Shown here one piece after another: positions 10,424 to 47,595 of a DNA stretch of 64,000 nucleotides. Source of the DNA: Azolla caroliniana (lineage: Eukaryota > Plantae > Polypodiophyta); NCBI GenBank assembly GCA_043228905.1, contig JBHGNT010000016.1, positions 1,488,001-1,552,000 on the forward strand. The letters are read 5' to 3'. Numbering within the stretch: position 1 is the stretch's first letter; each line of letters opens with the position of its first letter. Both the position numbers and the translations under genes were made by a program. Under the pieces are notes generated by a model that made no database searches, was not told where the DNA came from, and was given only the letters and a program-made list of their open reading frames with translations.

Positions 10424-12547
10424 TTTCCACTCGCATGCTTTTACCCGACAACACCACTTGCCTTTTTCCCGACCTTTGCGTCAACCTCTTCTACTGGTCA
10501 CGTTCACCTGCCGCCACCGATCTCTCCTATAGGACTCACGCCGACACTCGGGCCGATTGCCGGATCGGTGTGAGGATATCCGCCGACCGCCCATTTGCAG
10601 TCTTTTTGCCTTCGTCCCCTCGCCGCCACCATTCGCTACTCTAGGTCTCACGCCGGCTCTTGGGCCGACCGCCGGAGTCTCTAGAACCGGTGTGAAGGAT
10701 CCTCCTCGGGCCTTCGTCTAGTCTCTGACCCTTATCCCGGGTCGTCTTTGTCCGCAAGTCGAGAGGGTGGCTCGCACCACACCCTCCCCCGTGGTACCGA
10801 CGTACCGTGCTCCCGGCCTCTTCGTAGGCCTGCTCTCTCCTCTCTTCCGGATTAGTTATCCGAAAGTCCGTTCCACCCCGTTCTCGTCCGGGTCTGCCCG
10901 TGATTCTCTAGATTGCCGGGTCCCGTTCTCCTGTCATCACCGATCTCTCCTATAGGACTCACGCCGGCACTCGGACCGACAGCCGGATCGGTGTGAGGAT
11001 CTCCATAGGACCGGTCTTCGTTCTCCGCTTCATCCCTTACTCGTTGTCACTCTCCTCACTGTGCTCCCGCCTCCATCTTCCATCTCTTTCGGTCTCATTT
11101 TGCCATGTCGGCCGAACTACCGAAGTCTCTGTTACCCCGTACGAGATGTACGCAGAGTCAATGTGATGAGCGAGGGTCAAATATTATCATGATGATTGTT
11201 GTGTGTGTGTAGGGGGCATAAATGTAATTGTGAGTCGATACATATGTGAACACATGCACACGTGTGTGCATGTGGATGGATACGAGGAGGTGTGAGTGAG
11301 TGTCCAGTATGAATGCTCTAGGGGGCTTACACCCCTTTGTATCTACCCCCTCTTGTACTATTTAACCCCTTATGGGGAATGAATGAAGGAATAATCATTT
11401 TCTCTCTATCTATCTCTCTTTTCATCTCTCTCTCTCTCTCTCTCTCCCCCTTAACGTTGTACATCCTTAGGAGGGGAGTGGAGCCATTCTAGGCACCACC
11501 CCCCACCCCGCAATGCTTCTCAATGATTCTCAACATCTTCATCTCAATCTCTCTCACCATCATACTCTCCACCATCTTCACTATTACGTCATGTCAATCA
11601 TCATCATCAATAATCATCATAATAATATATTAACCATAACCCTAAAACGTATAACAGTCTCCGGACTAGATGTGGGGTAACCGATTTCGTAACGTCTTTC
11701 GGCGACTCGTCCGGGGTCACCGACCCTTTTAGTGGTGTCAGTGGAAAGGATCAGCTCTGTGATCAACCAAGCCCCGCCTAGGTTTGATTCTCCAATGTTC
11801 GGAGTTTCGGCTCTGATGCCGACCTTGCCGGACTCGTTCCGAACCCTTGATCACCTTCCTTCTGATTCCCGACCTTCGCCCAGTCGGTCTTTCTCCCCAT
11901 GTAAAAGAGGGCGGCTTGTTCCGCACCCTCTCCCGTATTGGCACCCTCATGCCGATTCTAGCCCCGGTCGAGCATTCCACAACCGGATCGCGCTCCAACC
12001 GAATCGGAGTGGCGCGCGGTTTGGTCCCCGGTTGGGTCGTTGCTTGGTCTCTTCGTCGACCTTCTCGCGAGCCACCTCCCATCCTTCTTCGCTGGCATCG
12101 TGCCAAGACTCCTCGATACCGTCATCCATCTCCTCGGTCTCACATGGGCGTAAGGGCCCGAATGCCGAGTTCTCCGGAATTGGTCCCGAGGGCTCTTGTC
12201 CGTTCCTTCCCCGTATCGTCTCGCTGGTGATTCTTGGTCTCACGCCGCCGCCTTCCTCCTCTTGGAGCTCACATGGGCACTCGGGCCCGACTGCCATCGT
12301 CTTGGGAGCAAGTGTCGGAAGACATAAAGAATTGCCCATCCGTTTTACGCCCTTGTCCGTAGCCACCGGCTCTTCCTGGTTGGCGGTCGTCTCCTTACCG
12401 ATCGCGCAAGCCACGCCTAGGCTTGCTTCTCCAATGTCCGGGGTTTCAATGTTCCGATTCTGCGATTGGTATAACGGTCTCGTCCTCGGCCGTTCTATCT
12501 CCGCAAGTCGAGAGGGCGTTTTGTTTTGCACCCTCCCGTGGTACCGT
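10424..12547 (-). mobile_element. Repeat-rich internal region of a putative non-autonomous Gypsy element (inverted homolog of 21673-22751/28147-28891)
   Basis: GGACTCACGCCGACACTCGGGCCGA...GGTGTGAGGAT repeats (10532, 10644, 10955) are reverse complements of repeats at ~22050-22350. Confidence 0.75.
11130..11656 (+). mobile_element. Solo LTR (AT-rich family, 527 bp)
   Basis: TGTTA...TAACA inverted termini; perfect 5-bp TSD GTCTC (11125-11129, 11657-11661); related sequence at 49275-49846. Confidence 0.9.
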
Positions 12548-13045
12548 TGTCGTGGAGAAAACTGTCCCTAGGCGGAAACCGAGGATTTCGGGAGAATTGG
12601 CGGTGTGCACCATGTGCACCCCCCTTTGTAGAAACGTGTGAATAGTATGAGTCAAGTCGGCACAGAGAATCCCATGTAAGTTGGGATTTATCCCACATTG
12701 TAATGCATCCCTCTCCTTGTTCTATAAAAGGAAGGGAGCGTCCTTTGTGAAAGGGTTGCCCATTTTGAGTCGTAAGGGTATATACCATTTTGTGCTACTT
12801 ACATACTTTCCTTCTTCTTCTTCTTCTTCTCCTTCTCGAGTACTCGTGCGGCAGTTATGGCAGGAAAGTTGTTAGCTTAACTCCTCTTCTTCTGAGTGTA
12901 CCCGGCTCGCGGCCGGGGTTGTATCTCTCCCTGTTGTAGGTTTGCTTCTACTCGGCCTCCTGTGCAAGACCCCGCTTGGCGCGACGAGCCTGAGAGCTCC
13001 CTGACGGCGGCTTGGCAGCAGACTGTTGTTGTAACCTAGCTTACC
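12548..13045 (+). mobile_element. Gypsy LTR (type B), 3'-truncated and fused to RT of a Gypsy element
   Basis: TGTCGTGGAGAAAA start; near-identical to the LTR at 28892; TATA-like CTATAAAAG ~12723. Confidence 0.85.
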
Positions 13046-14509
13046 TCAGACGAGTTCGCGGAGGCCTTCGCCGGAAGGTCGATTTACTCAGTCGGTGATC
13101 TGTACTCGGGGTACGACCAGTTCCAGCTAGCCGTGGAGAGCAGAGACATTACGACGATGCGAACTCCCCTCAGCCTAGTACGAATGTGTACCCTGCCACA
13201 AGGAGGGACCAACTCGGTGGCCCACATGGTGAATGCAATGAACAAGGTACTGAGGGATTGCATCCCAGACTTCACCATGCCATTTCTAAACGACATCCCG
13301 ATCAAGGGGTGCCCGGTGGAAGAGAAGGACGAGACACTCGGGCCGGACGGATGCCAGTGATTCGTGGCAACACACATCAACGACTGCGAGAAGGTGCTAC
13401 AAAGGCTAGAGGTTGCGAGGCTCACCTTCTCCAGGGATAAATCGGCCTTCGGGCAATCAGAAATCCTGGTGGTCGGACACCTATGTGGACCATATGGCCG
13501 GAAGCCGTCTCCGGCAAAAGTAGAAGCCATCTCTGCGATGAAGACCGACTGTAGCTCGGTTACAGAAGTTCAGAGGTTCCTGGGGGCGTGCGCATTCTAC
13601 CACATATGGATCCCGCATTACGCCCACGTTGCGGAGCCGCTATACGGGTTGCTGAAGAAGGGGCGAAAATTCGAGTGGCGAGACGAGCACACGGAGTCGG
13701 TCCGGAAGCTGAAGGAAGCTCTTGCGGCAGCATCGGCGCTCCGGAAGGCTGTCTACGAGAAGGGTACCCCGGTATACATAACGGTGGATACGAGTCCGAT
13801 CGGGATCGGATGGGTCGTCAACCACGAAGACGAGGACGGCATTCGGTTCCCGATCCGATTCGGCGCAAAGGTCCTCAGTGAGCGACAGCGAGGGTACGCC
13901 CAGGTTAAACGCGAACTCTAGGGTGTCGTTTCGGCAGTAAAGGCCGACAAAGACTACCTGATCGGGACAGAAGTGATTATCGAGACGGATTGCCTGCCAA
14001 TTCTCGGCATGGTCTCCGGATGCGCGACACCGGACCTGGCGATGCTCAGGTGGATAGCATACATCAAGTCCCTGGACCAGGAAATACGACACATTTCCGG
14101 AAAGGACAACGCCATGGCCGACATGCTTTCGAGGGCGAGGTTTGATGATGAGGGCGGCATGGTTTCGGAGGACGAAGAAGTCAGCGTGGACTTCTTCGAG
14201 GCGGCGTACGTGACGACCAATGGGGCGAGCACTCCGGCACTTAACGGCTTCGACGAGAGCAAGTACGACGGCGAGTGGCTACAGAACGGTGGGTTTTTTA
14301 GGACAATGACGCCGGATGCGTCATGGACGAGGGACGAGGCCAACCGGATCCGGAAGAAAGCATACCGATTCTTTCTCCGGGACGGATACTTATGGAAACA
14401 CCCGAAGAAGAGGAACGGCGTCCCGCTCTGGGTGGTGGCGATGAAGGAAGAACAGGAGGAGCTGCTAACGGCCTACCACGACAGCCCTTCGGCTGGACAC
14501 CGTGGAACG

Positions 14510-17500
14510 TGTTGAACACAGTGCTCGGCCACAACCGAGGAATAGGATCAACTCACAGAAAACAGGAAATACAAAATGCACGAGGACAATAGAGAGAAGA
14601 GTACACAGGATGTTTTACGTGGAAAACCCTAAATGGGAAAAACCACGGGAGTCCTCAAACTCCAACTATCACTATAAACACAGATGTACAATAGTGAAGC
14701 TACAAGGCAACAACCTTGAGCTCACTGTCTTCGCCACAGGCGGCGGTAATACACAGAGGCAACGACCTCTCTTCTTTCTCTCTCTCACTCTCTCTCTCGG
14801 CTGCTCTCACTCTCTCTCTCGGCTGCTCTCACTTCGCACCCTCTAAGTGAAAACAGAAAAATGAGCAACAGCACATAAACTGTTTGACTTTCGGGCTATT
14901 TACAAATATAGCCTCAAGGGCCCTTGGCAAACATATTCACAAATATGTCCCCGCATCCGGATCTCTCTCCGGGTACATTCGTCATCCGGCTCCGTAGCTG
15001 CAACCGGGCTTGCCGTCATTCATCTCCGGACATCCCATCCGGAGGGACCGAAATCCCAACAAACTCCCCCTTCACTTCGGCATGGGATGTCTCTCCAATC
15101 CGATCCTCTTCCGGCATGCTTCCAGCTTGTCGGGTGTGAGCACCTTGGTCAGCATATCCGACCCGTTCTCGTCCGTATGGATCTTCGTCAGTACGAACTC
15201 CTTGTCTTCTATCCTTTCCCGGATCCAGTGGTATCTACGCTGGATGTGTTTCGTCCGGGAATGGTAGGCCGCGTTCTTCGCAAGGTGGATGGCACTCTGA
15301 CTATCGCAGTAGAGCCGGTACTCCTCCTGCCGGATACCGACCTCTCTAATGAACTCCTTCATCCATATTATTTCCTTGCCGGCTTCAACAGCCGCCATGT
15401 ACTCCGCCTCCGTGGTTGACAACGCAACTGTCTTCTGCAACCTCGACTGCCACGAAACGGCTCCCCCTGCATATGTCATTACATACCCTGATGTAGACCG
15501 GCTGGTATCCGCATCAGCCGACATGTCCGAATCGGTAAATCCATTGAGTTCGGGCTCACCGGAGCCGAATCGGAGGCACATGTTCGAAGTGCCCTTTAAG
15601 TATCGGAGTATCCATTTGACCGCCTTCCAGTGCTCCTTGCCGGGATTACTCATATACCGGCTCACCACTCCGACTGCGTATCCAATGTCCGGTCGGGTAC
15701 ACACCATCGCGTACATCAAGCTCCCGACGGCAGAGGCATATGGTATCTTCATCATATCCTCCTTTTCAACTTTTGTCTTGGGACTTTGCTTGCCGGATAA
15801 CTTGCAGTTTGCCGGGAGGGTCGACCCGACCGGTCTTGCTTCCGACATGTTGAACCGGTGAAGCACCTTTGTCACGTACTTCTCCTGTGACAGCCACAAC
15901 AGCTTCTTCTTCCGGTCCCGGATGATGTGCATCCCTAGTATTTGCCTCGCCGGACCCAGGTCCTTCATTGAGAAAGTTCGGTGAAGCGCTTTCTTCAGCA
16001 TCCATATCTTGGCCTGGTCCCGTCCGACGATCAACATGTCGTCCACGTACAGGAGAAGTATTAGAAAGTCTCCTCCTTCGAACTTCTTCACAAACACACA
16101 GTGATCGGATTGCGTTTTGTGGTACCCTTCGTCGGTCATGAAAGAGTCGAACTTCCGGTACCATTGCCGGGGAGCCTGCTTCGGTCCGTAAAGGCTCTTC
16201 TTCAACCGGCATACCAGGTGCTCCTTCCCTTTCTTCTCGAATCCTTCCGGTTGCTGCATGTAGATCTCTTCTTCGAGGTCACCGTGAAGGAATGCCGTCT
16301 TCACGTCCATCTGTTCTACCTCGAGGTCCATGCTTGCCGCTATGCTCAGCACCGTCCGGATGGAGGTCATCTTCACTACCGGGGCAAATATCTCGTCGAA
16401 GTCGACGCCCTTCTTCTGCTGGAACCCCTTCACCACGATCCTGGCTTTGTATCTCGGGGGGTTTCCGGCATCTCCCGGTTTCAGCTTGAACACCCACTTG
16501 TTACGAAGTGCCCGCTTTCCTTTCGGCAACTCCACAAGTTCATATGTGTGGTTCTCATGCAGGGAATCCATCTCCTCCTGCATGGCACTTAACCACCTGC
16601 GGCTATGTGTGTCAAGCTTTGCTTCTTCAAAACTCTCCGGCTCCACCTCGTCGGTTAGCAGCACGTGCTCTGGTTCCGGAAATCTTCGGGGGGCCCTTCT
16701 CTCTCTTAGAGGATATCTCCGCTCCGGAGCTTCGGTAACGGGCTCCTCCGTTTCCTCTTCATCCGAATCCATTTCGGGATCGGGGCCGGTTCCGGTATCA
16801 GTTTCATCTTCCTCGGCCGGTTCTGTTTCTTCACCGTCTTCGGCCGGATCCTCGAGTGCTAACCGGTCCCTTTCCGGTCGGGACTGCTCCTCGTAGGGTT
16901 GATTCTCACCGGTCGACTTGGAGTTCTTCAACTTCTTCTCCGACTCCCAGTCAGCGAGTGTCTTGTCCTCCATGAAGATGATATCACGACTCCGGAATAT
17001 CTTTTTGTCGACCGGGTCCCATACTCGGTAGCCGAACTCGTCATCGCCGTAACCGAGGAATATGCATGGCCGGGTCTTTGGATCTAGCTTTCCTCTCCGG
17101 TCCTTTGCCACAGGCACATATGCGAGACACCCGAACACCTTCAGATGCCGGTAGGATACTTCCCTACCGGTCCACACTCTCTGCGGCGTGTCTCCGTCCA
17201 AAGGTACTGAGGGTGATCTGTTTATCACGTATGTCGCCGTCGACATTGCCTCAGCCCAAAACCCCTTGGGTAATTTCGCATGCGCCAGCATACTCTGGAC
17301 CCTCTCCATTATGGTCCGGTTCATCCTCTCGGCCAGCCCGTTCAGTTCCGGCGTCTTCGGCACAGTCAACTCGAGCCGGATTCCCTTCGAGCGACAGTAC
17401 TCCTCGAACTGCCCCCGGTATTCCCCTCCGTTATCCGCTCGTATCGCTTTCAGCTTCTTGCCGGATTCCCTTTCCACTCTCACGTGGAGTTGTTTGAAGA

Positions 17501-19846
17501 CGGACAATACTTGGTCCTTTGTCTTCAACGGTGCCGTCCACAGCTTCCGGCTGTGGTCATCAATGAATGTCACGAAGTACTGGGCTCCGCCATGTGACTT
17601 CGTTTCTACCTGACACACATCAGTGTGTACCAACTCCAATGGTACACTACGTCTCATCGGTGGTCTTGAGCGGAAGGCGGTCCGGTTTTGCTTACCGGCC
17701 AGACAGTCGGTACACTTCCCCAGTTGTACGTGCTTTACCGGTATCAGGTTGTCTTCGGCAAGCCTCTTCATCCCCTTCTCGCTCATGTGGCACAGTCTCT
17801 TGTGCCACAGCTCACCGGTAGTGTCAGCTGCCACGTTCAGCTCCTCCGGACATAGCCGGGAATTCATCAGGTACAGTGTGTTGGCCTTCCGGGCCCGAGC
17901 CACTATCAGGCTCCCTTTGCTGAACTTCATGACACCGTTCCGGATGCTACCCGTGTAGCCTTCATCGTCTAGCCTCCCGGCCGAAATCAGGTTCAATCGA
18001 ACCTCCGGAACGTGTCGAACATCCTTCAGCAGCATCTTGCATCCGGTTGATGTCATCAGCCACACGTCTCCTATGCCGGCAATCCGGCATGTACCTTCAT
18101 TTCCCATCCGGACACAGCCGTGCTCACCGGCTGTGTAGGATGAGAAGTATTTCTTCTCCGGGGTCAGGTGGAACGACGCTCCGGAATCGACCACCCAGGT
18201 CATCTCTTCACCGGCAAGGTTCAGCTCCCTCTCTTCGGTAATGAGCATTATCTCTTCTTCACTTGCCGCGAGTGCCGTCGTTCCTTTCCGATCCTGCCCT
18301 CGCCGATCCGGACCTCTCCGGTCCGTGGCTCCCCGGTATGCACCGTTTCGCTCCGGTGACTTCTTCGAATCGGTACCGTCGGTTCCGTTGTCTTTCCGGA
18401 AATGCCGACAGTTCTTCTGGAAGTGCCCCGGCTTCCCACAGTAGAAGCATGTAGGTCTCCCCCTCGACTGCAACTGTGTCCCCGACTTCTCCCGTCTTTG
18501 CGGACTCCGGTTCCGTTGTCTTCCCCGTTCCGATTCGGTAAGCAGCGCCTTCGAGTCGGAGGCTGGTTCTTTATCTCTCCGACGCGCTTCTTCATTTAGA
18601 ATACTTGTCTTTACCGTTAGTAAAGACAAGTTCTCTTCCTTACAGGAGGTGCTGAGTGTAACTACCAAGTTCTCCCAGCTCTCCGAAAGGGTACACATCA
18701 GCATGATGGCTTGCATTGCGTCATCCAACGGGAACTTGATCGCCGCAAGCTGGTTCACGAATCCCATGAACGTGCTGACGTGTTCGACCATGCTCTCGCC
18801 GTCCCGGTACTTAAGATTCACTATCTTCCTCATCAGGGAGGTCCGGGTCAGAGCATTCTTCCTCTCATACAGTCCGGACAGCTTCTGCCACATCTCATAG
18901 GCGTTCGTATCGTTCGCCACATGTTGCAGGACACTTACATCGACATATTGCCGGATCGTCGCTACGGCTTTCCGGTTCAGGAGCTTCCACTCCGACTCGA
19001 TTACTCCCTTGGGTATCTCGGCATTGTCGATCGGTTCGTACAGGTCTCGGACGATGAGAAGGTCTTCCATCTTTATCTTCCAGTCGGCGTAGTTCTGTGA
19101 GTTCAACACCATCATGCCCGGAGGCCCACTACCGCCGCCTTCCATTTTCTGTGTTACCGTCGCTTTGATACCACTTTGTCAAACACAGTGCTCGGCAACA
19201 ACCGAGGAATAGGATCAACTCACAGAAAACAGGAAATACAAAATGCACGAAGACAATAGAGAGAAGAGTACACATGATGTTTTACGTGGAAAACCCTAAA
19301 TGGGAAAAAACCACGGGAGTTCGCAAACTCCAACTATCACTATAAACAGAGATGTACAATGGTGAAGGTACAAGGCAACAACCTTGAGCTCACTGTCTTC
19401 GCCACAGGCGGCGGTAATACACAGAGGCAACGACCTCTTCGTCTCTCTCTCTCTCACTCTCTCTCTTGGCTGCTCTCACTTCGCTCCCTCTAAGTGAAAA
19501 CAGAAAAATGAGCAACAGCACATAAACTGTTTGCCCTAAGTCATATTTATACACATATGACTTTCGGGCTATTTACAAATATAGCCTCAAGGGCCCTTGG
19601 CAAACATATTCACAGATATGTCCCCGCATCCGGATCTCTCTCCGGGTACATTCGTCATCCGGCTCCGTAGCCGGGGTCTTCAGCATCCGGCTCCGTAGCC
19701 GGGGTCTTCATCATCCGGATCCGTAGCCTGGTACTCTTCATCCGGCTTCATGCCGGGTACTCTTCATCATCCGGCTCCGTAGCTGCAACCGGGCTTGCCG
19801 TCATTCATCTCCGGACATCCCATCCGGAGGGACCGAAATCCCAACA
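14510..19846 (-). mobile_element. Full-length Ty1/Copia copy 3 (LTRs 14510-15061 and 19177-19846)
   Basis: TSD GAACG (14505-14509, 19847-19851); PBS TGGTATCAAAGC resembling tRNA-iMet (19162-19173); PPT ~15064-15074; TG...CA termini. Confidence 0.97.
15072..19145 (-). CDS. Intact Copia Gag-PR-IN-RT-RH polyprotein, 1357 aa
   Basis: Uninterrupted ORF with CCHC, VVDSGAS, HHCC, DDE, YVDD and RNase H motifs. Confidence 0.96.
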   Translation of the reverse strand: MEGGGSGPPGMMVLNSQNYADWKIKMEDLLIVRDLYEPIDNAEIPKGVIESEWKLLNRKAVATIRQYVDVSVLQHVANDTNAYEMWQKLSGLYERKNALTRTSLMRKIVNLKYRDGESMVEHVSTFMGFVNQLAAIKFPLDDAMQAIMLMCTLSESWENLVVTLSTSCKEENLSLLTVKTSILNEEARRRDKEPASDSKALLTESERGRQRNRSPQRREKSGTQLQSRGRPTCFYCGKPGHFQKNCRHFRKDNGTDGTDSKKSPERNGAYRGATDRRGPDRRGQDRKGTTALAASEEEIMLITEERELNLAGEEMTWVVDSGASFHLTPEKKYFSSYTAGEHGCVRMGNEGTCRIAGIGDVWLMTSTGCKMLLKDVRHVPEVRLNLISAGRLDDEGYTGSIRNGVMKFSKGSLIVARARKANTLYLMNSRLCPEELNVAADTTGELWHKRLCHMSEKGMKRLAEDNLIPVKHVQLGKCTDCLAGKQNRTAFRSRPPMRRSVPLELVHTDVCQVETKSHGGAQYFVTFIDDHSRKLWTAPLKTKDQVLSVFKQLHVRVERESGKKLKAIRADNGGEYRGQFEEYCRSKGIRLELTVPKTPELNGLAERMNRTIMERVQSMLAHAKLPKGFWAEAMSTATYVINRSPSVPLDGDTPQRVWTGREVSYRHLKVFGCLAYVPVAKDRRGKLDPKTRPCIFLGYGDDEFGYRVWDPVDKKIFRSRDIIFMEDKTLADWESEKKLKNSKSTGENQPYEEQSRPERDRLALEDPAEDGEETEPAEEDETDTGTGPDPEMDSDEEETEEPVTEAPERRYPLRERRAPRRFPEPEHVLLTDEVEPESFEEAKLDTHSRRWLSAMQEEMDSLHENHTYELVELPKGKRALRNKWVFKLKPGDAGNPPRYKARIVVKGFQQKKGVDFDEIFAPVVKMTSIRTVLSIAASMDLEVEQMDVKTAFLHGDLEEEIYMQQPEGFEKKGKEHLVCRLKKSLYGPKQAPRQWYRKFDSFMTDEGYHKTQSDHCVFVKKFEGGDFLILLLYVDDMLIVGRDQAKIWMLKKALHRTFSMKDLGPARQILGMHIIRDRKKKLLWLSQEKYVTKVLHRFNMSEARPVGSTLPANCKLSGKQSPKTKVEKEDMMKIPYASAVGSLMYAMVCTRPDIGYAVGVVSRYMSNPGKEHWKAVKWILRYLKGTSNMCLRFGSGEPELNGFTDSDMSADADTSRSTSGYVMTYAGGAVSWQSRLQKTVALSTTEAEYMAAVEAGKEIIWMKEFIREVGIRQEEYRLYCDSQSAIHLAKNAAYHSRTKHIQRRYHWIRERIEDKEFVLTKIHTDENGSDMLTKVLTPDKLEACRKRIGLERHPMPK

Positions 19847-19851
19847 GAACG

Positions 19852-21000
19852 TGGGCCACGTTCGAGAAGATAAAGGGGAAGTACTGGTGGCCGAGACTAT
19901 ACTGGGACGTGCATCGGTTCGTGACAACTTGCGAGAGCTGTCAGATGCACTCCATAGTCCGACATTGGGACGAGCTTCACCCTACGTACCCTCCGACCAT
20001 CCACTTCAAATGGATGGTAGATCTGGTGACGATGCCGATGGGAGTAGGACAGATGCGGTATCTGGTCCTGGCTCGGGAAGATCTGACGAACCAGGTGGAA
20101 GGCCGATCCCTTCAGAACAAAACGACCGCGGCCGTATGTCGGTTCCTGATCGAGGACGTGATATGCCGGTACGGGTGCGTCGGGAAGATCGTGGCTGACC
20201 GCGGGGAGTTGGACGCCGAAGAGGCCGAGGAGCTGGTCGATCGGCTAGGAGTCAAGCTCTCGCTTACCGCTGCGTACAATCCGGAGGCGAATGGGAAGGT
20301 GGAGCGCGGACACGGACCGATCGTCAAGGCGTTAGTTCGGGCGTGCGGAGGTCAAGTCGGGAACTGGCCGCGGCTGCTGCCTTACGCGTTGTGGGCTGAC
20401 CGAACTACGCACAGTTCGGTAACCGGATTCATGCCGGCAGAGCTCATGTTTGGGCAGAAGCCGATCATGCCGATGGAACGTACGATCTCCTCATGGGCAA
20501 CTGTGGACTGGAGAGACGAGATGAGCCGGGAGGAACTGTTGGCGGCGCGCATACGACAGCTCGAGCGAAGACCGGAGGACGTGGAGCAGGCTGCAGGAAA
20601 GCTTCGGGTGGCAAGGACGAGGAACAAAGCCCGGTTCAACCGGACGCACCGGCTCCGACCAAAGAAGATCGAGGAAGGCGACTGGGTGCTAGTCTACGAC
20701 AGCAACCTCGACAACCAGCACCGAGCGACACGGAAGTTCGCAAGAAGGTGGTTCGGGCCTTACATGGTACAAAGCGCCAATGACAACGAGACGTACCATC
20801 TGGCGGAACTCGACGGCACGAGAATGGCGATACCGGTAGCTGGGAAGCGGATCAAAGCGTTCAAGAAGCGTCACGACAACGAGCCGGATCCGGTTAACCT
20901 GGATCGCGACGACAAACGATCCAAACCGAGGAAGAACCGACGGGCGGGGAATGAAGGTCGGACCGGTTTTCTCCGTCCCAACTCAATTTGGCGCATGCCG
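19852..21000 (+). pseudogene. Gypsy integrase (3' half of the interrupted pol)
   Basis: CESCQ, WMVDLV, IVADRGE, YNPEANGKVERGH, RWFGPY; no chromodomain seen. Confidence 0.9.
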
Positions 21001-29590: not shown

Positions 29591-30710
29591 GGTAGCCACC
29601 GGTACGCGTGCAGAATCACTCCAGTTCGCGCCACAACCAGTGCAGCCGGGACCAGAGAGAAGTCGGCTTCCGACACCCCATCACTTCCTCGTCCGAGATC
29701 CCCATGGTTCCGCCCCTCTTCTACACGTACCCGCGGAATACCGCAACACCGTGGTACCGATCTTCTGCCATCTCATGGGGCAAGTCCGTCTCCTCGGCGT
29801 TGGCTTGCGGTCTCGATCTTTCCTCTTCCTCGAGCATTGCTTCGAGAGCCGCGTACGCCTCCGCAATCCTGGCCCCAAAGCCAAGCCTTGCCGACTCTCT
29901 TTGTCGTTTGGCCTCTTCCCGCTGTGATGGCACGCCGTCGCACGCCTTCCTCCTAGCCTTCTCGTCCCGCTCGTCATCTAGGCATTTGCATACCCTTCCG
30001 ACCTTCGACCAGTCCTCTGTAAGGCCATTCGCTCCGTCCTCATTTTTTAGCTCAATTCCGATGGCATCCCATTCCGCTCGGTCGATCGACTTAATAAACA
30101 ACAAGACTTTGTGCGCCCCCACCAAACCTTGTTCCCGCTCCGGGAGCCAAGCAAGTCGTCGCTCGAACTCTCAGGAATGCCTTCGTTGCACCCCGGTGGG
30201 AATTTGCCGATGCTACCCACTGGTCGAAGCCGCGTCGTCCCTGGCTCTTTCGTCGTCCCCCATTTGCCTGCAGGAGTGCCTTTTTGAAGGCCTCCCACGA
30301 ACTATGAGCTTCTCGGAGCTCCTTCACTTTCGCGTGCATACGGACGATGACGACCCGACAGAAGAACTCCAACCTCGACGCCTTCGCTACGTCTCGCTCC
30401 TCCATTTCCACGTTGTAGGCTTCCAAGTAAAATGGGACTTTGTCCCCATTGAAACGGCTGACTCTTTCGACCACTTGCTCAACTGCTTGTTGCGTCGTCT
30501 CTCGTCTTGTTGTTGGTCGTCCAAACTCCCTCACCACTTCGACAAAAAGTTGCGCGAAGTCGTCTTCCTCCAGCTCCATTCTCCCTTGTCGCCCTTCACG
30601 TTGGGTTCACCAAATATGTCGCGTTGTTACATGTGCGCGTGTAGAAGGGCGGGACCACAGGGGTCTCGAACGAGGGAGTAAAGGATGTCGAGAAGCCGAA
30701 ACACGAGAGA

Positions 30711-30767
<57 letters not shown>

Positions 30768-31371
30768 CATGTGCGCGCTACGCCGACTCTTATGAACGGG
30801 AAACAAAAAGGGGTGGAAACACCCGACACTACTAGAGACGCGGATGCGTACAACCAAACATATATATGTATATATATATATATATATATTACAATGGAAG
30901 AGATACAACCCCGACTTCGAGACGGACCAAGGTAGGTTACAACAGCAGTCTGTTGCCAAGCCGCCGTTCGGGGAGCTCTCGGGCTTGTCGCGCCGAGCGG
31001 GGTCTTGTGCAGGGGACCGAGCAGAAGCAAACCCTAAACAGACACGAAATCGCTACCCACGCAACGACGAAAAAGAAGAAGAAGGAGAAACTACCTAACC
31101 CTAAACCAAACGGTATACCCTCTAACACAAAATGGGCAACCCCCCTACAAGGGACCATCCCTTCCCTTTATAGAACAAGGAGAGGGATGCGTTACAATGT
31201 GGGATAAATCCTGATTTACATGAGATTCTTTATCCCGACTTGACTCCCACTCAGCGCCATAAAGGCACCCCTATTATTCACACATTTATACAAGGGTGAG
31301 TGCACATGATGCACTCCGACGATTCTCCCGATATTCTTTGATTCCACCTAGGGACGGTTTTCTCCACGACA
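29591..31371 (-). mobile_element. Gypsy 5' LTR (30617-31371), tRNA-Trp-type PBS and frameshifted gag (30579 to ~29591)
   Basis: LTR begins TGTCGTGGAGAAAACC on minus; PBS TGGTGAACCCAACGTGAA (~30595-30612); gag-like RFNGDKVPFYLEAY. Confidence 0.85.
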
Positions 31372-32612
31372 GCGGTCAAGGGTCTCTTCGGGGGATCAAC
31401 TCTAGAAGAGCTTACACAAATGGTGCGGAATCTCCAGATCGTGCAGGCCTGGAGAGACAGCGGCGAACAGCCTCGTGACCGGAGGTCGTTGGTAGGGCAA
31501 CGGTGCATGTGGTGTGACGCAGTCGGTCATATCCAGAAGGAGTGCGCGGATTTTGCAGAAGCACTCAGGAATAACGTGGTGTACCTCTGGAATGGGCGGG
31601 TACATGCGAGCGAGACTCGAAAAGCCCTGGAGTTGAATACCAGGCACGGTAAAATGAAGCGGTTGATGAAGGAAGCCGCGGCGCAACACGGAGAGGCCAT
31701 CCACTACTCTGTGTCGGCGGGTATCCGGGTCGGGGGCGATGAGGGTCGAAAGGCGACAGACTCCAGATTATGGCTGCTAGTGCTAGAAGGCCTCTTCGGG
31801 GTTCGGCTGAGGAAAGAGGAAGCGGACCACGCGAACCGCACTGAGCAGCGGATTCGGGAGGTCACCGGATGGGATGATCCGGTTGAAGAAAAGATCGGCT
31901 TCGTGGAAGCCGCATGCTCGAACTACGAGGTTCTGGTAGAAGACAAGCGCGCTGGAAAGGCTGGAGGGTTCAGTCCCTCACAACGGTATGAGACCCGGTT
32001 CGGACCGAAGCCGAACGATGCCGCCAACACCGGCACGCCTGATAAAAAGAAGTCGGCCGGTTTCCAGCTAAGCACCAAAATCGAGCGAACGATGGACCTA
32101 CGAAAGGTCCTTGAGGAACAGATCCTCGACAGCAAGGTGGAGTTGACGTTACAGGAGGTACTTGGGGTTGCCAAGAAGGAGTTCCACGACTCCATTGTAG
32201 ACTTGGTAAAGCGTAAGCGGCTCTCGACGGAGCCAGAGCCGGAGAAGCCTGTGGAGGGGCAGATGACACGCCTAGAAGACACGGCCCTAGAGGACGAGTT
32301 GGTGGACAACCACTATTCGAAGTTGCATTGGGCCAGAGCCATCACGGAGACCCTTGTTCGGATCGGGGACGTTCCCGATCCGGTGGTGGCAGTGATAGAC
32401 CATGGATCCGAAATCAACCTGATGTCCATAGATTTCTATAAGAAAGGGAAATGGTCGATCAACACCAAGCACGGGTGGAAGATACGTGCGGCGACGCGTG
32501 CTATGGAGGAGTTGCATGGTGCGTGCCCGAATGTACGCATAAAGATCGGCGACGTCAAGATAGATCAACACTTCTTTGTGCAGGAGACATCCTCGCACCT
32601 GCTGATACTCCT
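31372..32612 (+). pseudogene. Gypsy gag (zinc knuckle)-protease fragment
   Basis: CMWCDAVGHIQKEC; VIDHGSEINLM protease motif; abrupt end at ~32612. Confidence 0.88.
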
Positions 32613-32928
32613 TAATTCATCACAAGAGAGACTCAAACTCTATACCTCCCCATGTATACCTAACCACTAAGCTACTACAACTTTATTCTTATTAGAAATA
32701 TTTTCATTCATATATTACTTTATGAGATGTGCGTGAAGCTTCGCTTTTTCTCACACTACACACACCACACCACGACATTGTTCTTCTTTGGTACTGTAAA
32801 CCACCGGTTAGAGTAAGGGGCACTTGATGGTTTGAGGATGCACAACTCCACCTTCTGCTTAAGAAGCTCCATCAACATTGGCATGTGAGCTCTCAGTACT
32901 TAAATTGGTTTCAGACTCCATGGCACGT

Positions 32929-34879
32929 TGTCGCGTTATTACGCGCGTGCGTGGAGAAAGGCGGGACCACGGGGGTCTTGGACTAGGGAGTGACGGAGCG
33001 TAGGAAGTCGTGCTTCACCGTTTCCGGGGGATCCCAGAAGAACACCGGAAGCGACCGAAGGGAGAGAGAGAAAGAGAGGGAGTGCGCGCTTAACACCGAC
33101 TCACGCACACACGCGCACACACACACACATGCCGACCCGACTCACGCCCTTATGTACAGGAAACGCAGGAAAGGGGAAGCACCCGACACCAACAAAGACG
33201 CGAATATACACAGACAGACGCAACGTATATATATATATATAAAAGGAAGAATACATTCCCGGCTTCGAGCCGGACCAAGGTCGGTTACAGCAGTCGTCTG
33301 CTGTCAAGCCGCCGTCGGGGAGCTCTCGGCTTACGGCCTTGATCTTTCCTCTTCCTCAAGCATCGCCTCGAGAGTTGTGTACGGCTCTGCAATCCTGGCC
33401 CCAACGCCGACCCTTGCCGGCTCTCTTTGCCGTTCGGCCTCTTCCCGTTGTGGTGGCATGCCGTCGCGCGCCTTCCTCTTAGCCTTCTCGGCTCGCTCAT
33501 TGTCTAGCCGTAGGCACACCCTTCCGACCTTCGACCAGTCCTCCATAAGCCCATTCGCTCCGTCATCATCTTCGAGCTCAATCCCAATGGCCTCGCGTTC
33601 CGCTCGGTCGATCAACCTGACGAACAATAGGACCTTGTCCGTCCCCACCAACCTTGTTCCCGCTCCGGGAGCCGAGCAAGCCGTCGCTCGAACTCTCGGA
33701 ACGCCTTGGTCGCGCCCCGGTGGGTCTTTGCCGATGCTACCCACTGGTCGAAGTTGTGTCGTCCCCGGCTCTTCCGTCGTCCTCCGTATGCCTTCAGGAG
33801 CGCCTCTTCGAAGGCCTCCCACGAACTATGAGCCTCACGGAGCTCCTTTACTTCCGCATGCATCCGGACAGCTACGACCCGACAGAAGAACTCCAGCCTC
33901 AACGCCTCGTCTACGCCACGCTCCTCCATATCCGCATTGTAGGCTCCCAAGTAAGATGGGACTTTGTCCCCGTTGAAACGGCCGACTCTTTCGACCACTC
34001 ACTCAACCGCTTGTTGCGCTGCTTCTCGCCTCATCACCACTCGTGCCGCCTCCAACACCACTTCGGCCACCATCACCACGAGGTCGTCGTCTTCCGACTC
34101 CATCCTCCCTTGCTGCCTTTCACGTCGGGTTCACCAAAGATGTCGCATTATTACGCGCGTGCGTGGAGAAAGGCGGAACCACGGGGGTCTTGGACTAGGG
34201 AGTGACGGAGCGTAGGAAGTCGTGCTTCACCGTTTCCGGGGGATCCCAAAACAACACCGGAAGCGACCGAAGGGAGAGAGAGAAAGAGAGGGAGCGCGCG
34301 CTTAACACCGACTCACGCACACACACACACATGCCGACCCGACTCACGCCCTTATGTACAGGAAACGCAGGAAAGGGGAAGCACCCGACACCAACAGAGA
34401 TGCGAATATACACAGACAGACGCAACGTATATATATATATAAAAGGAAGAATACATTCCTGGCTTCGAGCCGGACCAAGGTAGGTTACAGCAGTCGTCTG
34501 TTGTCAAGCCACCGTCGGGGAGTTCTCGGCTCGTCGCGCCGAGCGGGGTCTTGCACAGGAGGCCGAGCCAAAGCAAACCCTAAGCAGAAGACGAAGGGGG
34601 GAGAAGAAGAAGAAGAAGAAGTAACTAACCCTAAATCTAACGGTATACCCTCTGACGCAAAATGGGCAACCCTTTCACAAAGGGCGCTCCCTTCCTTTTA
34701 TAGAACAAGGAGAGGGATGCGTTACAATGTGGGATAAATCCCGACTTAACTACTCTTCGGCGCCATAAAGGCGCCCTCGTTATTCACACTAAATGTACAA
34801 GGGTGAGCACACATGCTGCACCCCGCCGATGTAGCCAATGTTTCCCGGTTTCCACCTCTGGACGAAATTCTTCACGACA
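32929..34879 (-). mobile_element. Internally deleted Gypsy element: 5' LTR 34141-34879, PBS, gag fragment, partial 3' LTR 32929-~33330
   Basis: Direct LTR repeats at 32929 and 34141; 4-bp TSD ACGT/ACAT restores the host frame P-H-V-P-W. Confidence 0.88.
34119..34136 (-). promoter_or_regulatory. Primer binding site complementary to the 3' end of plant tRNA-Trp
   Basis: Plus strand TTCACGTCGGGTTCACCA matches the plant tRNA-Trp 3' end plus CCA as I recall it; 4 nt from the LTR. Confidence 0.8.
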
Positions 34880-35521
34880 ACATGCGGCACGGTAAAGATC
34901 ACCATTGGTTCGACAATGGTCAGGTCGACGCACCCAATCTCTCCCTGCGACAATGCGAAGGCTTTCCCGTGCCTCTCGAGCATCCTTCTAAACCGGTCCT
35001 CTTCCGCCGGCAGTAGGAAGCCACCCCACCGATCTTCAGCTCTCGTAGCGTTTCGTCGGTGAAACAGTGTCCTATGTCGGCCGGATCTCGCAAGCTCGGG
35101 TCAGTAGCGACCCCCTTTATTCGTTCCTAGCTGCCCTCCGGTAAGGGAGCCGCGACGGGCTTCACCTTCCAGTCCACAGTCTTGTACTTGATGTCTACTC
35201 GGGCGATCCGATGCACCCTGGTTTTTCTTTCGAAGTCCGCAATGACTTCATACATGTCGATCGAGTTGACCGGTATGACTCGGTCTTCTCTTAGGCCTCC
35301 TTCGACTACCTTCCCGATTTCTCCAAGGGTGTCATCGAACGAGACCACCTCCACGGCTTCCCCAATTCCTTCATCGTGACTCAAGGCTCCGCACGCCTTT
35401 AAGAGTATCTCAGTCCGTTTTCTTTCTCGGCCACTAATGCTGGCTATGGTACATCCCCCGTTGTCGGAGAACAAAACTTTCCTTCCTATTTTACAGGTGT
35501 GGGGAATTTTCCGGCTATCCT

Positions 35522-35564: not shown

Positions 35565-36738
35565 ACCTTGTCGTTATTTCCGAGGGTGTCCCTATTCCAC
35601 TCATGATTCTTCCGAACAGTCAAAATTTGGACGGAATGACGGCCGTCCGGACTTTTTACCCTCGCATAGGTTGAACCATTGTCCAGCACTTTCGTATCCA
35701 TTCTAGCCATCGTGATGTATGGTTCGCCGAGGATGACCAGGTGGGAGGACGTCTCTTGCACGAAAAAGTGTTGGTTTATATCGACGTCTCCGACGCTCAC
35801 CCAGACGTTCGGGCAAGCCCCGTGTAGTTCTTCTGTGGCTCTTGTACCCGTGCGTATCTTCCACCCGTGTTTGGTGTTGATCGGCCAATTCCCCTTTTTG
35901 TAGAAGTCCATGGACATCAGGTTAATTTCCAACCTGTGGTCGATTAATGCCACCATCGGTTCCTTCACGTCCCCGATACAAACCGGGGTTTCTGTAGTCA
36001 CTCTTGCCCAGTGTGGCCTGGCGTAGTGGCTCTCCGCAAGCTCGTCTTCCGCAGCCATCTCGTCGAGGAGTGTTCGCCCTTACCTCAACCGGCTTCTCGG
36101 GCTCTGGTTCCGTCGTGAGACGCTTTCTCTTCACGAGGTCCACGATGTTGTCGTGGAATTCCCTTCTTGCTATGCCAAGCACTTCCCTAAGCGTGAGTTC
36201 TATGCGATTGTCAGGAACTCACTCCTCTAGAACCTTCTGTAGGTTCGTTGTTTTCTTGATTTCCGAGCTTAAACAGAAGCTGGGAATCCTGCCCTTGGGA
36301 CCCAGTCGACGTGGAATCATGCCTTTTAGGCGCGCTTCGGGTGTCATACCTCCCCGAAAGGCCCGCTCCCCCAGATTTTTGTGCTCGCCTTTCATCGATC
36401 AGGGCGTCGTAGTTCCTGCACGCGGCCTCCACAAATCCGGTGCTCTCCTCAACGAGGTCACTCTAGCCGGAAACTTCACGCACACGCTCCTCCCTCCGGT
36501 CAAGGTCTCGAGAATAACCGGCCAGAACCCAGGTTTTGAATCGAGTTTGGCCGCCTTTTCGCCTACGCGGATGCCGGCCGAAGCCGAATACTGGACGGCT
36601 TCGACGTGTCGTGTCGCGGCCTCTTCATGCCACCTCGTCCGAAATTCGCGTCAAGCAACCTTCGTGTATCGCTCGCATGTATCCTGCCATTCGAAAGATA
36701 AACTACATTACTTCTGAGCGCTTCATCGAGGTCAGCGT

Positions 36739-37372
36739 TATCGTGACGATTTTCGGCTACGGTGTGAAACCAAGTGAGACGAATAAACCAAGGATGTGCA
36801 ACATTGCACATACACCTAGCTAAGGCCTAGTGGCACTTGAGTTCATACAGAGGGGTGCAAGCAAGGTTTGAACCTTGCACCTCTAAGATACAAGATAATT
36901 GCCTTACCACTAGGACAACTATCATATAGTGTAAATTTTATGTATTTCCTTTTCATATACAAATTATAGACGAAACAACCATAGAAAACCATATGCACAA
37001 AACCATGGTTCTAAACCCATGGTTTGTGCATGACATAAGCAAAACCGTGTCCACAAAACCATGGTTTTAGCCCATGGTTTTGTGCATGTCACAAGCATGG
37101 AAAGACCTATAAAAGCCTCTACTTGAGCTTGTGTAAGGGGGACTCAATATGTGATATCACCAACACCATTATCATCAATATAATTATATTTGTCTTTATC
37201 TTCTTCATATTTTCTACTTCTCAAGTGTACAATCTTTCTTCTTCTCAAGTAAACCAATTTCACCTAATCTTACATTGATCGTCATCTCTTCGATAATTCT
37301 ACAAACATCCTCCCCAGTCCAAGACCCCGGTGGTCGCTCGAGTAGCACACGCACGTGCGAATCTTCGCAACA
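36739..37372 (+). mobile_element. Gypsy-lineage solo LTR (634 bp)
   Basis: TATCGTG (mutated TGTCGTG)...CAACA; flanks GCGT/GCAC; removal plus one 4-bp copy restores gag R-D-C-A-D-L; 3' end AGTCCAAGACCCC shared with other Gypsy LTRs; CTATAAAAG. Confidence 0.8.
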
Positions 37373-37467
37373 GCACAATCTCTCTGGGCATGCCCGGTGA
37401 CGTCGCACCATATGCACCTCTAATTGGCCGTCGGTCGTCGGTCGCGCAGCTGACCCTCATCGCTTCG

Positions 37468-38168
37468 TGTTGGGAGACAGGTCCCTCCGAATGGGAAGTG
37501 AGGAGAACAATGCTGATGAGCAAACTCGGTCGAGGCCGAAACCGGATGTGGAGTACCCAGCTACAGAAGACCCGGTGAGAACCGGACGAGGAGTACCCAG
37601 CTACGGAAGACCCGGTGAGAACCGGACGAGGAGTACCCAGCTACAGAAGACCCAGTGAGAACCGGATGAGGAGTAACCGGCAAGAGCCGGATGGTGAAGG
37701 CCCGGTGAGAAGTGCTCACCGGATGAAGGGACATATTCGCAAATATGTTTTCTGAGGGTCCATCGGGGCTATATTTGTAAATAGCCAAAAAGTCATATTA
37801 GTATAAATATGACTTAGGGCAAGTGTAATGGGGTTGTCATTTCTTGTTGGTGCAAGATTTGAGAGCGTAACAGCGTACAGAGAGAGATAGAGAGGAAGAG
37901 GTCGTTGCCTCTATTGTAACCGCCGCCTGAGGCGAAGATAGAAAGCTCGAGGTTGTTGCCTCGGTGCTTTACTGTTGTATATTGTAACATAGTGATAGTT
38001 TGCAGCCTGTGGGCTACCGTGGTTTTTCCCCTAGTTTGGGTTTTCCACGTAAACATCTTGTGTACTCTTCTCTCCATTGTGTCGTGCATTCATTCCCGTT
38101 TTCTGTGTGTGATTCTAAGCCTCGGTTGTGGCCGAGCGTAGTTCATCGGGAACGTGTAGTTCTTGTCA
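37468..38168 (+). mobile_element. Copia solo LTR (701 bp)
   Basis: TGTTGGG...TGTCA; perfect TSD CTTCG; homologous to 6809-7589. Confidence 0.95.
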
Positions 38169-39832
38169 CTTCGTCAGGCCTGGGCGATCTGGAGGTCGCG
38201 CACCATCCTTGTTAGCTCTTCAAGTTCTACGCCGCCTGCAGCTCCCGCGACTACGTTTGTCGGGGGTGGGCCTAGCTCGAGCCACCTCCTCGTTTCTTCC
38301 ATTTGGATCGGCGTCGGCTCAGCTCTGGTTTCGACAGTTGGTCCAGCCGGCGAGGACCCCTTTTCTTTCCAATCTCGGCGTTTGTCAATCCTGTTGCATA
38401 CTTCTTTGACGGTCACCCAGTCAGTCGTGAGACCGTAGTTGGTTTCAAGAAGAAGACCCATGCTTTTTCCCGAATGCGCGAGTTGAACGACATAATGAAA
38501 AATAGGACTTTGCTCGTTTCGAGCATGGTTTGGTCCAATCTAGAGAGTCGCGCAAATCGTGACTCGAACTCTTGGAGGAGCGCCGAAGCGTTATGACCCT
38601 TGTCGGGGCTATTGACCCAATCCATAAAGTCCTTTTTCGATAGCCAGAGCGAGTCTTCGTAGTTGTACCTTTTGAGAACTTCCTCTCCGAATTCCACCCA
38701 ATCGCGACAGCCTGCTTGTATTTCAGCCATCTCAATATGGATGTGTGGTGTCACGACCCGGGGAAACCTTGTCAGCCGTCTATCCTCGCATATATTCCTC
38801 ATCTACATTTCAGATTTGTAGGCCTCTAAGTAACTCGTGGCGTCTTTTCCACTGAACCGGCCTATCTTGTTGATTGTTGCTTCTATGGCCCTGTCAAGGG
38901 CACTCGCGCCCTCGCGAGCGCTAACCAAGCGGTCTACCGCCACCGCCATTGCTTTTGCAAGTTCGCTCCCTCTCATTTTCAGGTTCCTTTGCCGCCCCTC
39001 CTCATGTCGGGTTCACCAAATATGTCGAGAAATTCCTCGCGGATGCATAGAAGTTGTTCAGGACCCCGGGGGTCTTGAACCAAGGAATCAAGAAGTGAGG
39101 AGGCAAAGTCTGTGGTTTACGTAAGCCCTGAGACCGCGGTTAAACAGAGAAGGTTAGCAAAACGAGAGAGAGTGTGTAAGAGGATCGTGTGTAGACACAG
39201 GCGCAGACAGAGATGCTGAGAACAACTTGCGTTAGGTAGATAAGTTTCTATTAATCAAAACATGCGCATAGCACTGTGGGTGATTACAACCGGATCAGTG
39301 CCGGTGATAGAGCGTAGAGCTCTACAGTAGTTAGATACAAAGATACGTAGGCACGCAGAAGGTCGATCCCCTAGTCGGGAGCTCTCGAGCATCTGACACG
39401 AGCAGGAGGAAGCGCCTTCCAGTGATCCGCCGTAGGACTCCTCCTCTCCCCTCCTCTTTGTTCTTTTTTCTCTCTCTATTTCCTTTCTCCTCTCTCAAAA
39501 ATCACCTTTCTTTTCCCTTCCTTTTTGTTCCTTTTTCCCATTTTCTACAGTCAAAGGTCGCTCCTTTTATAGCACAAGGAGCAACTGTTACAAAGCATTC
39601 ATGACTTGTTGCCTTCCCTTCCTAGATTCTCCCCCCTAATTCACTCTCCTCATAACTCTCCCTACTTACGCGATGTCTGAATCCCTATTAGTGCCTTAAC
39701 TACCTAGTACACCTCCTTCTACCTATGCCTAGTACTTACACTATTTACTTCACTAGGGGTGTGCACTCATGCACACTAGTGTTCCTGCACGTTTCACATT
39801 GTTTCCACCTATGGCCCGGAATCTTCACAACA

Positions 39833-41658
39833 ACGTGAAGACGGCATTCCTTCATGGTGACCTTGAAGAGGAGATATATATGCATCAACCGGAAGGATTT
39901 GAGAAGAAAGGGAAGGAGCACCTAATGTGCCGGCTGAAGAAGAGCTTATACGGACTGAAGCAATCTCCCCGGCAATGGTACCAGAAGTTTGACTTCTTCA
40001 TGACCGATCAAGGGTACCACAAGACGCAGGCCGATCACTGTGTATTTGTGAAGAAATTTGATGGAGGAGATTTCCTGATATTGCTCCTATACGTGGACGA
40101 CATGTTGATCATCGGACGAGACCAAGTCAAGATACGGATGTTGAAGAAGGCCCTTAACTGAACCTTCTCAATGAAAGACTTGGGTCCGGCAAGATAGATA
40201 CTAGGGATGCACATCATCCGGGACCGGTCGAAGAAGCAATTGTGGTTGTCACAAGAAAAGTACGTGGCAAAGGTGCTTCAGTGATTTAACATGTCAGAAG
40301 CAAAACCGGTCAGATCGACACTCCCGGCAAACTACAGATTATCAGGTAAGCAAAGCCCGAAGACAAAGGCAGAGAAGGCGGATATGATGAAGATTCCATA
40401 TGCCTCTGCGGACGGGAGCTTGATGTACGCAATGGTGTGTACTCGACCGGATATTGGATACGCAGTCGGAGTGGTGAGTCGGTTCATGAAAAACCCCGAA
40501 AAAGAGCACTGGAATGTGGTAAAATGGATACTCCGATACTTGAAGAGCACTTCGAGTATGTGCCTCCGATTCGGCTCCGGTAAACCCCGCATGGAAGGAT
40601 TTACCGATTCGGATATGTTGGCTAATGTGGACACCATCCGGTCAACTTCCGGATATGTCATGACCTATGCAGGGCGTGCCGTTTCATGGCAGTCGAGGCT
40701 GCAGAAGACGGTTGCGTTGTCAACCACGGAGGCGGAGTACATGGCAGTCGTGGAAGCCGGCAAGGAAATATTATGGATGAAGGACTTCATTGGAGAGCTA
40801 GGGATCCGGCAAGAGGAATATCGGCTCTACTACGACGGTCAAAGTGCCATCCACCTTGCAAAGAACGCAGCATAACATTCTAGAATGAAGCACATAGAAC
40901 GTAGGTACCACTAGATCCGGGAGCAAGTTGAAGATCGAGAGTTCTTGCTAACGAAGATCCACACGGAGGAGAACGGGTCGGATATGTTGACCAAGGTACT
41001 AACACCCGACAAGCTGGACACATGCCGGAAGCAGATCAGACTTACAAGACATCCCATACCGGAGTGAAGGGGGATATTGTTGGGAAAAATCGGTCTCTTC
41101 GGATGGGATCCAATGATGAATAAAGAGAACCCGATGAGATCCGAAAGAGATCCGGAAACCGGATTGGTGGACCCAGTGAGAACCTAAAGAGAAGACAGAT
41201 TTGTAAATATGTCCGGAATAAGCCCATTGAGGCTATATCTGTAAATAGCCCTAAGTTCATATAACTATAAATATGACTTAGGGCAATCACTTTAGTGAGA
41301 GAGCATGAGAGTGTGGTGTTGTTATTGTTGTTGTCATATTGTTGTAATTATTGTATAGAGAGTGACAGAGTGAGAGAGAGAGAAGGAGATACAGAGAAAT
41401 ACTCTGTTGTAACTGCTAGTTGGTGAAGATACAGAGCTCGAGGTCATTGCCTCTGAGTCTCTGATTGTACCCTTTCTCTTCATAGTGATAGTTCGGAGTC
41501 TATGGGCTCCCGTGGTTTTTCCCTATAAGGGTTTTCCACGTAAACATTCTGTGTGTTTTCTTTCGTGTACTCTCCACTTCTCATTTCTGTGTTTGATTCT
41601 TATAGAAGTGTTTTACTACTCGGTTGTGGTCGAGCGATATTCCGCGCGTTTCTCATCA
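39833..41658 (+). mobile_element. Degenerate Copia RT-RH fragment with PPT and 3' LTR 41078-41658
   Basis: VKTAFLHG, YVDDML, multiple stops; GAAGGGGGA PPT; LTR ends TCATCA adjacent to gag of the next element. Confidence 0.9.
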
Positions 41659-47473: not shown

Positions 47474-47595
47474 GATCCATACTATCCACAAAGACAAACA
47501 AACACACATAAAATACATACACATAACACAGGTAATCAGATACACTTGGTAGCATCCACTTAAAGTTTTGGTTGGATACTTAACAACCACTTAGT

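What the first reader, a model, noticed from the sequence alone, without database searches (positions are those of the whole stretch)
12544..39836. Gypsy lineage with 4-bp, CpG-centred (NCGN) target sites
Seen: the 4 bases flanking every clear outer Gypsy LTR terminus are CCGT (12544), ACGG (21673), GCGG (31372), ACGT and ACAT (32925, 34880), GCGT and GCAC (36735, 37373) and ACGT (39833). Six have a central CG; the other two are one CpG-type transition away. For both two-sided insertions, removing exactly 4 bp restores the host reading frame (PHVPW; RDCADL). Established: plant LTR elements usually make 5-bp TSDs, as the Copia copies here do. Inference: this integrase prefers CpG sites, which would steer it into CG-rich TEs and away from the CpG-poor gene space, explaining the nesting without a chromodomain.
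Basis: partly seen in the sequence, partly recalled or inferred. Interest (0 to 1): 0.8.

Follow-up and report, generated by a model that had tools for sequence, protein, structure and literature searches.

The report
Moss-type Gypsy retrotransposons inserting at CpG
These nested jumping genes duplicate four host bases centred on CG when they insert, which is real and strong but is the habit already published for the moss Phygy lineage, to which they likely belong.

Summary
Uninterrupted relatives carry one copy of each site (ACGT, GCGC, CCGT), fixing the length at 4 bp; Copia copies here make 5 bp. In related elements from public metagenome contigs, 63 of 74 distinct outer 5' LTR flanks have a central CG (local background 3.7%), 8 more have CA or TG, and 24 of 30 outer 3' flanks do too. 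But Neumann et al. 2019 already list Phygy (Physcomitrella non-chromovirus Gypsy) with 4-bp NCGN duplications and a tRNA-Trp primer site. These elements match it: no chromodomain, no extra RNase H, a primer site read (from recall) as Trp, and P. patens homologues at 44-56% identity. Placement in a REXdb tree could not be tested. Small additions: T is never first (0 of 74), ACGT dominates, and 3 of 74 copies sit directly on an older element's duplication. The idea that CpG preference explains the nesting is not shown: 28 of 74 flanks are CpG-poor, and 5-bp elements nest here as well.

The parts
12544..12547 (+). Left copy of 4-bp duplication CCGT of element A
12548..29748 (+). Element A, Phygy-like: truncated 5' LTR 12548-~13049, long non-coding 3' region, PPT 28879-28891, 3' LTR 28892-29748; holds element B and two Copia copies; no pol of its own seen
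29749..29752 (+).
13049..21672 (+). Element B, 5'-deleted: RT-RNase H 13049-14509, integrase from 19847, PPT 21015-21027, 3' LTR 21028-21672; split by a Copia
21673..21676 (+). Outer flank ACGG of element B (one-sided)
29753..31371 (-). Host of A: 5' LTR 31371-30617, primer site, gag-like frame; continues at 12543 towards ~10420
31372..31375 (+). Outer flank GCGG of that element (one-sided), inside a gag-protease frame of the same lineage (31376-32610, DUF4100)
32925..34883 (-). Element C, internally deleted (5' LTR 34879-34141, partial 3' LTR 33331-32929), with duplication ACGT / ACAT in a pol of the same lineage
36735..37376 (+). Old solo LTR 36739-37372 with duplication GCGT / GCAC; uninterrupted relatives read GCGC
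38162..39836 (-). Element E: 5' LTR 39832-39023, primer site, gag; outer flank ACGT 39833-39836 in a Copia RT whose intact copies carry the same ACGT
14505..19851 (-). Control: Copia 14510-19846 with 5-bp duplication GAACG
22747..28151 (-). Control: Copia 22752-28146 with 5-bp duplication GGAAG
11125..11661 (.). Control: solo LTR 11130-11656 of an unassigned family with 5-bp duplication GTCTC

Best explanation
These are chromodomain-less Ty3/gypsy retrotransposons, likely of the Phygy lineage, that leave a 4-bp duplication with CG in the middle because their integrase likely cuts the target with a 4-base stagger around a CpG that it reads itself. Shown: 4-bp length, central CG in several LTR subfamilies, ACGT the commonest site, T never first and A rarely last, no chromodomain and no extra RNase H. 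Inferred: CA and TG variants are later deamination of methylated CpG; the reading is done by the integrase on the DNA sequence. Known 4-bp intasomes such as foamy virus bend the target at a central pyrimidine-purine step (recalled); the absence of TA here suggests base-specific contacts on top of bending. Nesting likely reflects a modest bias towards CpG-dense DNA plus tolerance of insertions in gene-free clusters.
For: 63 of 74 outer 5' flanks have CG at -3/-2, 8 more CA or TG, 0 TA; background 3.7%. 24 of 30 outer 3' flanks have CG at +2/+3 (after removing L015, a primer-site end); the two positions together fit only a 4-bp copy. Empty sites in relatives for three window insertions. The rule holds in each of the four larger LTR-start classes: 19 of 22, 14 of 18, 15 of 18, 8 of 9. 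In raw reads of run X21 the mixed loose ends before the LTR start (1473 reads, agreement 0.36) have a majority ending ACGT. 17 of 35 differences between the LTRs of element A are CpG transitions, while CpG holds 46 of 252 cytosines. No chromodomain or second RNase H in the window integrase or the intact relative L004 at E up to 1. P. patens gag-protease homologues form one clade at 44-56% identity. Phygy: 4 bp (100%) NCGN, tRNA-Trp 81%, no extra domain (PMC6317226).
Against: No labelled Phygy RT, RNase H or integrase sequence was available, so clade membership rests on features and on unlabelled P. patens gag-protease proteins; the tree has no outgroup, was the quick version, and does not group the window with P. 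patens to the exclusion of Riccia and Adiantum. L004 is 7.3 kb, just under the Phygy range 7656-9968 bp. Of 13 metagenome contigs holding both outer ends of one LTR, only 3 match at all 4 bases, 7 differ at one and 3 at two; none matches at 5 or 6; I take these as chimeric assemblies, recombinants or decay but could not show it. The 74 flanks come from a small set of assemblies, so they are not independent species.
Confidence: 0.85

Rival explanations
1. The integrase (or a partner) prefers methylated CpG, so target choice follows the methylome and not only the sequence.
For: The elements and their targets decay at CpG, so the cluster is likely CG-methylated; 11 of 74 flanks are the same lineage and 3 of 74 sit exactly on an older duplication. 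A title on CpG methylation affecting retroviral integration in vitro appears in the reference list of PMC5408687 (title only).
Against: Many targets lie in AT-rich, CpG-poor DNA (28 of 74 at or below 2.5%); no methyl-binding or chromo domain is detected; Ginger1 and Drosophila ZAM-group elements show CG-centred targets too, and flies have little CpG methylation (recalled).
Confidence: 0.2
2. One reading: plain CpG preference is the main cause of nesting in TEs and of avoiding genes.
For: All 6 window insertions are in CpG-rich TEs; cluster 6.9% CpG against 1.5% at 42-64 kb. Phygy nested in Tcn1 is the commonest repeated nested pair in P. patens, 14 of 26 examples (PMC6911290).
Against: The contrast gives only about a 4 to 5-fold bias; two Copia copies and a solo LTR with 5-bp sites are nested in the same cluster; 55 of 74 metagenome flanks match no TE I held and their mean CpG is 3.1% (biased sample, small library).
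Confidence: 0.25
3. A separate lineage, sister to or convergent with Phygy (for example a wider bryophyte-fern-fungal clade), with the same target rule.
For: Named relatives in Riccia, Ceratopteris and Adiantum are as close as P. patens; gag look-alike clusters in the ESM Atlas are commonest in Basidiomycota; TatI also has 4-bp sites and a Trp primer.
Against: TatI always has an extra RNase H, absent here; Selgy uses tRNA-Ala and is about 5 kb; all tested features match Phygy, which later papers also report in a liverwort (PMC12885004).
Confidence: 0.12
4. Chance or selection of ends by the reader in a CpG-rich cluster.
For: The cluster has CpG observed/expected near 1 and only six events.
Against: An unbiased search found the same ends plus one more NCGN end; 63 of 74 outside flanks against 3.7% gives p about 1e-78.
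Confidence: 0.01

Closest known systems
Phygy, non-chromovirus Ty3/gypsy clade of Physcomitrella patens (Neumann et al. 2019, PMC6317226; passages of main text and supplementary file 3 read)
   Same: 4-bp NCGN duplication, primer site of the Trp type (identity of the tRNA recalled), no chromodomain, no extra RNase H, polyprotein filling the internal region in the intact relative L004; P. patens gag-protease homologues.
   Different: Another host genome; gag-protease only 44-56% identical to P. patens; L004 is 7.3 kb; some copies here carry a long non-coding 3' region without pol; the motif is narrower than NCGN (no T first, ACGT commonest).
TatI and Selgy (same paper)
   Same: Non-chromovirus, 4-bp duplications; TatI also primes with tRNA-Trp.
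   Different: TatI has an extra RNase H; Selgy uses tRNA-Ala and is about 5 kb; no NCGN rule is listed for either.
Ginger1 DNA transposons (Bao et al. 2010, PMC2836005; abstract and passages read)
   Same: Gypsy-like integrase, 4-bp CG-centred duplications (CCGG 75%, CCGT/ACGG 24%).
   Different: DNA transposons with terminal inverted repeats, no RT; CCGG dominates, whereas here ACGT does.
Drosophila ZAM-subgroup errantiviruses (review PMC5408687; passages read)
   Same: Gypsy elements with a sequence-specific palindromic target, CGCG among the three listed.
   Different: Insect elements; CGCG has GC in the centre and is absent from my 74 flanks.

Membership tests
Ty3/gypsy | Domain order gag-PR-RT-RH-INT between LTRs with PBS and PPT | tested here: met
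   Pfam on window pieces and on L004; best solved relative Ty3 Gag-Pol, E 6e-55
Phygy | 4-bp target duplication | tested here: met
   CG at -3/-2 and +2/+3
Phygy | NCGN target motif | tested here: met
   7 of 9 window ends; 63 of 74 and 24 of 30 outside ends
Phygy | tRNA-Trp primer binding site | tested here: inconclusive
   Three window PBS found; the one at 34136 is the exact complement of an 18-nt CCA-ending small RNA listed as miR894 in PMC5846777. That this is the tRNA-Trp 3' end is recalled; a scan for such a tRNA gene found nothing.
Phygy | No chromodomain and no extra (archaeal-type) RNase H | tested here: met
   No such Pfam hit at E up to 1 in the window integrase or L004 pol and gag
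Phygy | Length 7656-9968 bp, no extra ORF | tested here: inconclusive
   No intact copy in the window; L004 spans 187-7491 (7.3 kb) with two ORFs filling it, but it is an assembled contig
Phygy | Clade membership in RT, RH and INT trees (REXdb) | not testable with these tools
   No REXdb sequences held; P. patens hits cover gag-protease and the start of pol only; tree without outgroup
TatI | Extra RNase H domain | tested here: not met
Chromoviruses (Tcn1, Galadriel) | C-terminal chromodomain | tested here: not met

The most novel reading that the evidence does not exclude
The integrase of a Gypsy clade spanning mosses, liverworts, ferns and perhaps fungi reads CpG, possibly methylated CpG, in a VCGB palindrome and re-uses the duplications of older copies, giving a chromodomain-free route into silent chromatin.
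Probability: 0.15. Interest if true: 0.7.

Novelty: new member of a known kind. Interest (0 to 1): 0.22.

Why it matters
The rule itself is published, so the finding mainly extends it to further families in another genome and sharpens the motif. It gives a clean, testable case of sequence-specific integration in plants, where most LTR elements are non-specific, and an intact relative (L004) on which the untested question, whether plain or methylated CpG is read and whether this replaces a chromodomain, could be asked.

Tried and rejected
No genome is held for the window, so the genome-wide count was replaced by a metagenome scan and read laying. Pairing 12544 with 21673 as one insertion was rejected: the LTRs differ and 12544 pairs with 29749. 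A 12-bp duplication at element A was considered because a short repeat lies on both sides; uninterrupted relatives carry the repeat, leaving 4 bp. Two-sided metagenome contigs were mostly mismatched and could not be resolved. Scans for distant relatives with flanks gave nothing in viral contigs and two fragments without outer ends examined in genome contigs. A scan for a matching tRNA gene found nothing, ARAGORN finds no tRNA in the window, and a paper search did not tie miR894 to tRNA-Trp (listing only). The careful tree did not finish. Two-LTR circles were rejected for the LTR-4 nt-LTR junctions, since the linkers are NCGN-like and not the PBS-side or PPT-side bases. Searches for a printed link between this preference and nesting or methylation found none; the library lacks most subscription papers, the per-element table of Neumann et al. 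was not among the files with hits, and two picture files of PMC6911290 were not searchable, so the narrower motif may already be visible there.

Full report
Observation. All eight 4-mers lie at the given coordinates and abut LTR termini. The region 10-42 kb is a stack of nested Gypsy and Copia elements with CpG near expectation, 6.9% of positions, against 1.5% at 42-64 kb. This end closes an element that begins at 12548: the LTRs are 93% alike over 498 nt, both flanks read CCGT, and the host without the insertion is seen in L074, L004 and in contigs of run X1. The window thus holds 6 insertions, 3 two-sided, with 7 of 9 outer flanks CG-centred and the other two CA.

Length. For 32925/34880 and 36735/37373 the two flanks overlap by exactly 4 nt on uninterrupted relatives, which read ACGT and GCGC. 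The flank ACGT at 39833 is the sequence of intact Copia copies in the window at that place. Two Copia elements and one solo LTR have 5-bp duplications.

Larger sample. No genome is held. I dropped 44 inner ends behind the polypurine tract and 5 duplicates. Of 74 outer ends, 63 have CG at -3/-2, 5 CA, 3 TG, 3 other; background in the next 300 nt is 3.7% and no other offset exceeds 7 of 74. Of 31 ends scored as outer 3' ends, one is a primer-site end; 24 of the other 30 have CG at +2/+3 and none at +1 or +3. Both positions can hold only if the copy is 4 bp. Among CG sites T is never first (0 of 63, background 34%) and A is last in 4 of 63 (background 34%); ACGT is 23 of 74. Raw reads of run X21 agree: the mixed loose ends before the LTR start have a majority ending ACGT. 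Against: of 13 contigs with both outer ends of one LTR only 3 match fully, though none matches at 5 or 6 bp; chimeric assembly is likely but unproven. The contigs come from few assemblies.

What it is. The intact relative L004 (7.3 kb) has LTR, PBS, gag-protease with DUF4100, an overlapping pol (RT, RNase H, integrase), PPT and LTR, with no chromodomain and no second RNase H; window pol pieces are 75-88% identical to it. Named relatives are Riccia, Ceratopteris, Adiantum and P. patens proteins, so the host is likely a bryophyte; I did not determine the species. The PBS is the complement of an 18-nt small RNA ending in CCA listed in PMC5846777 (passages); its identity as tRNA-Trp is recalled.

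What is known. Neumann et al. 2019 (PMC6317226; passages and supplementary file 3) state that Phygy elements have an insertion preference for NCGN and list 186 elements, 4 bp (100%), tRNA-Trp 81%, no extra domain. Jedlicka et al. 2019 (PMC6911290; passages, one supplement passage) report mostly 4-bp sites for Phygy, GC-rich centres in 4-bp sites, and Phygy nested in Tcn1. A liverwort genome paper lists Phygy (PMC12885004; passages). CG-containing targets are also known for Ginger1 (PMC2836005; passages) and Drosophila errantiviruses (PMC5408687; passages). PMC7466625, PMC11899658 and PMC6839031 (passages) added nothing on this rule. Every Phygy feature I could test is met or inconclusive; tree placement against REXdb was not possible, and my gag-protease tree lacks an outgroup.

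Mechanism. Most likely the integrase cuts with a 4-base stagger and reads the central CpG itself. Foamy-virus integrase is the best solved relative of this integrase and is recalled to bend its 4-bp target at a central pyrimidine-purine step; with TA absent from 74 sites, bending alone does not suffice, so base contacts are inferred. CA and TG variants fit later deamination, since CpG transitions make up 17 of 35 differences between the LTRs of element A. Whether methylation matters is untested.

The steering claim. All six window targets are TEs, but the wider flanks range from 0 to 11% CpG; 28 of 74 are at or below 2.5%, 14 at or above 6%; 11 match this lineage, 8 Copia, 55 nothing in my small library. 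Assembly favours unique flanks and no genome background exists, so the test is weak. A 4 to 5-fold bias is plausible; exclusion from gene space is not shown, and 5-bp elements nest here too. I found no printed statement of this model.

Verdict. A real and well-supported feature, already described for Phygy; new families of a known kind, with a sharper motif and an open question on methylation. Interest 0.22.

Noticed in passing
L034, L067, L113 (junctions next to the pattern match); run X21 joint 21675 to 21028: 3 of 74 outer LTR starts lie exactly 4 nt from another LTR terminus (head to tail ACGT and CCAC, head to head CCAT), and 3 reads show LTR end, ACGT, LTR start: likely insertion into an older element's duplication. 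No proper expectation was computed.
   Followed up: partly
window 21677-22746, 28152-28891 and 10420-11129: Long non-coding 3' regions of gag-only members of the lineage, possibly non-autonomous elements; related contigs L010, L040, L064, L074 have similar layouts.
   Followed up: no
window 11130-11656 and 49275-49839: Solo LTR with 5-bp duplication GTCTC; a related repeat at 49.3-49.8 kb has internal inverted repeats. Family not assigned.
   Followed up: partly
L004:984-3146: Gag look-alike clusters with DUF4100 in the ESM Atlas are commonest in Basidiomycota; an earlier unreviewed finding reports NCGN sites in fungal retrotransposons. Relationship untested.
   Followed up: no
L122, L123: Pol fragments of this lineage (56-61% identity) in a record titled as a cyanobacterial genome assembly, likely plant contamination.
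   Followed up: no
window 34136, 30612, 39018 (minus strand): The primer site is complementary to the small RNA annotated as miR894, which may be a tRNA 3' fragment able to target these elements.
   Followed up: partly
window 7590-8303: AT-rich tandem and palindromic repeat block.
   Followed up: no
window 47584-48138 and 54460-54924: Host gene pieces: a CAP-family protein and a protein kinase.
   Followed up: no
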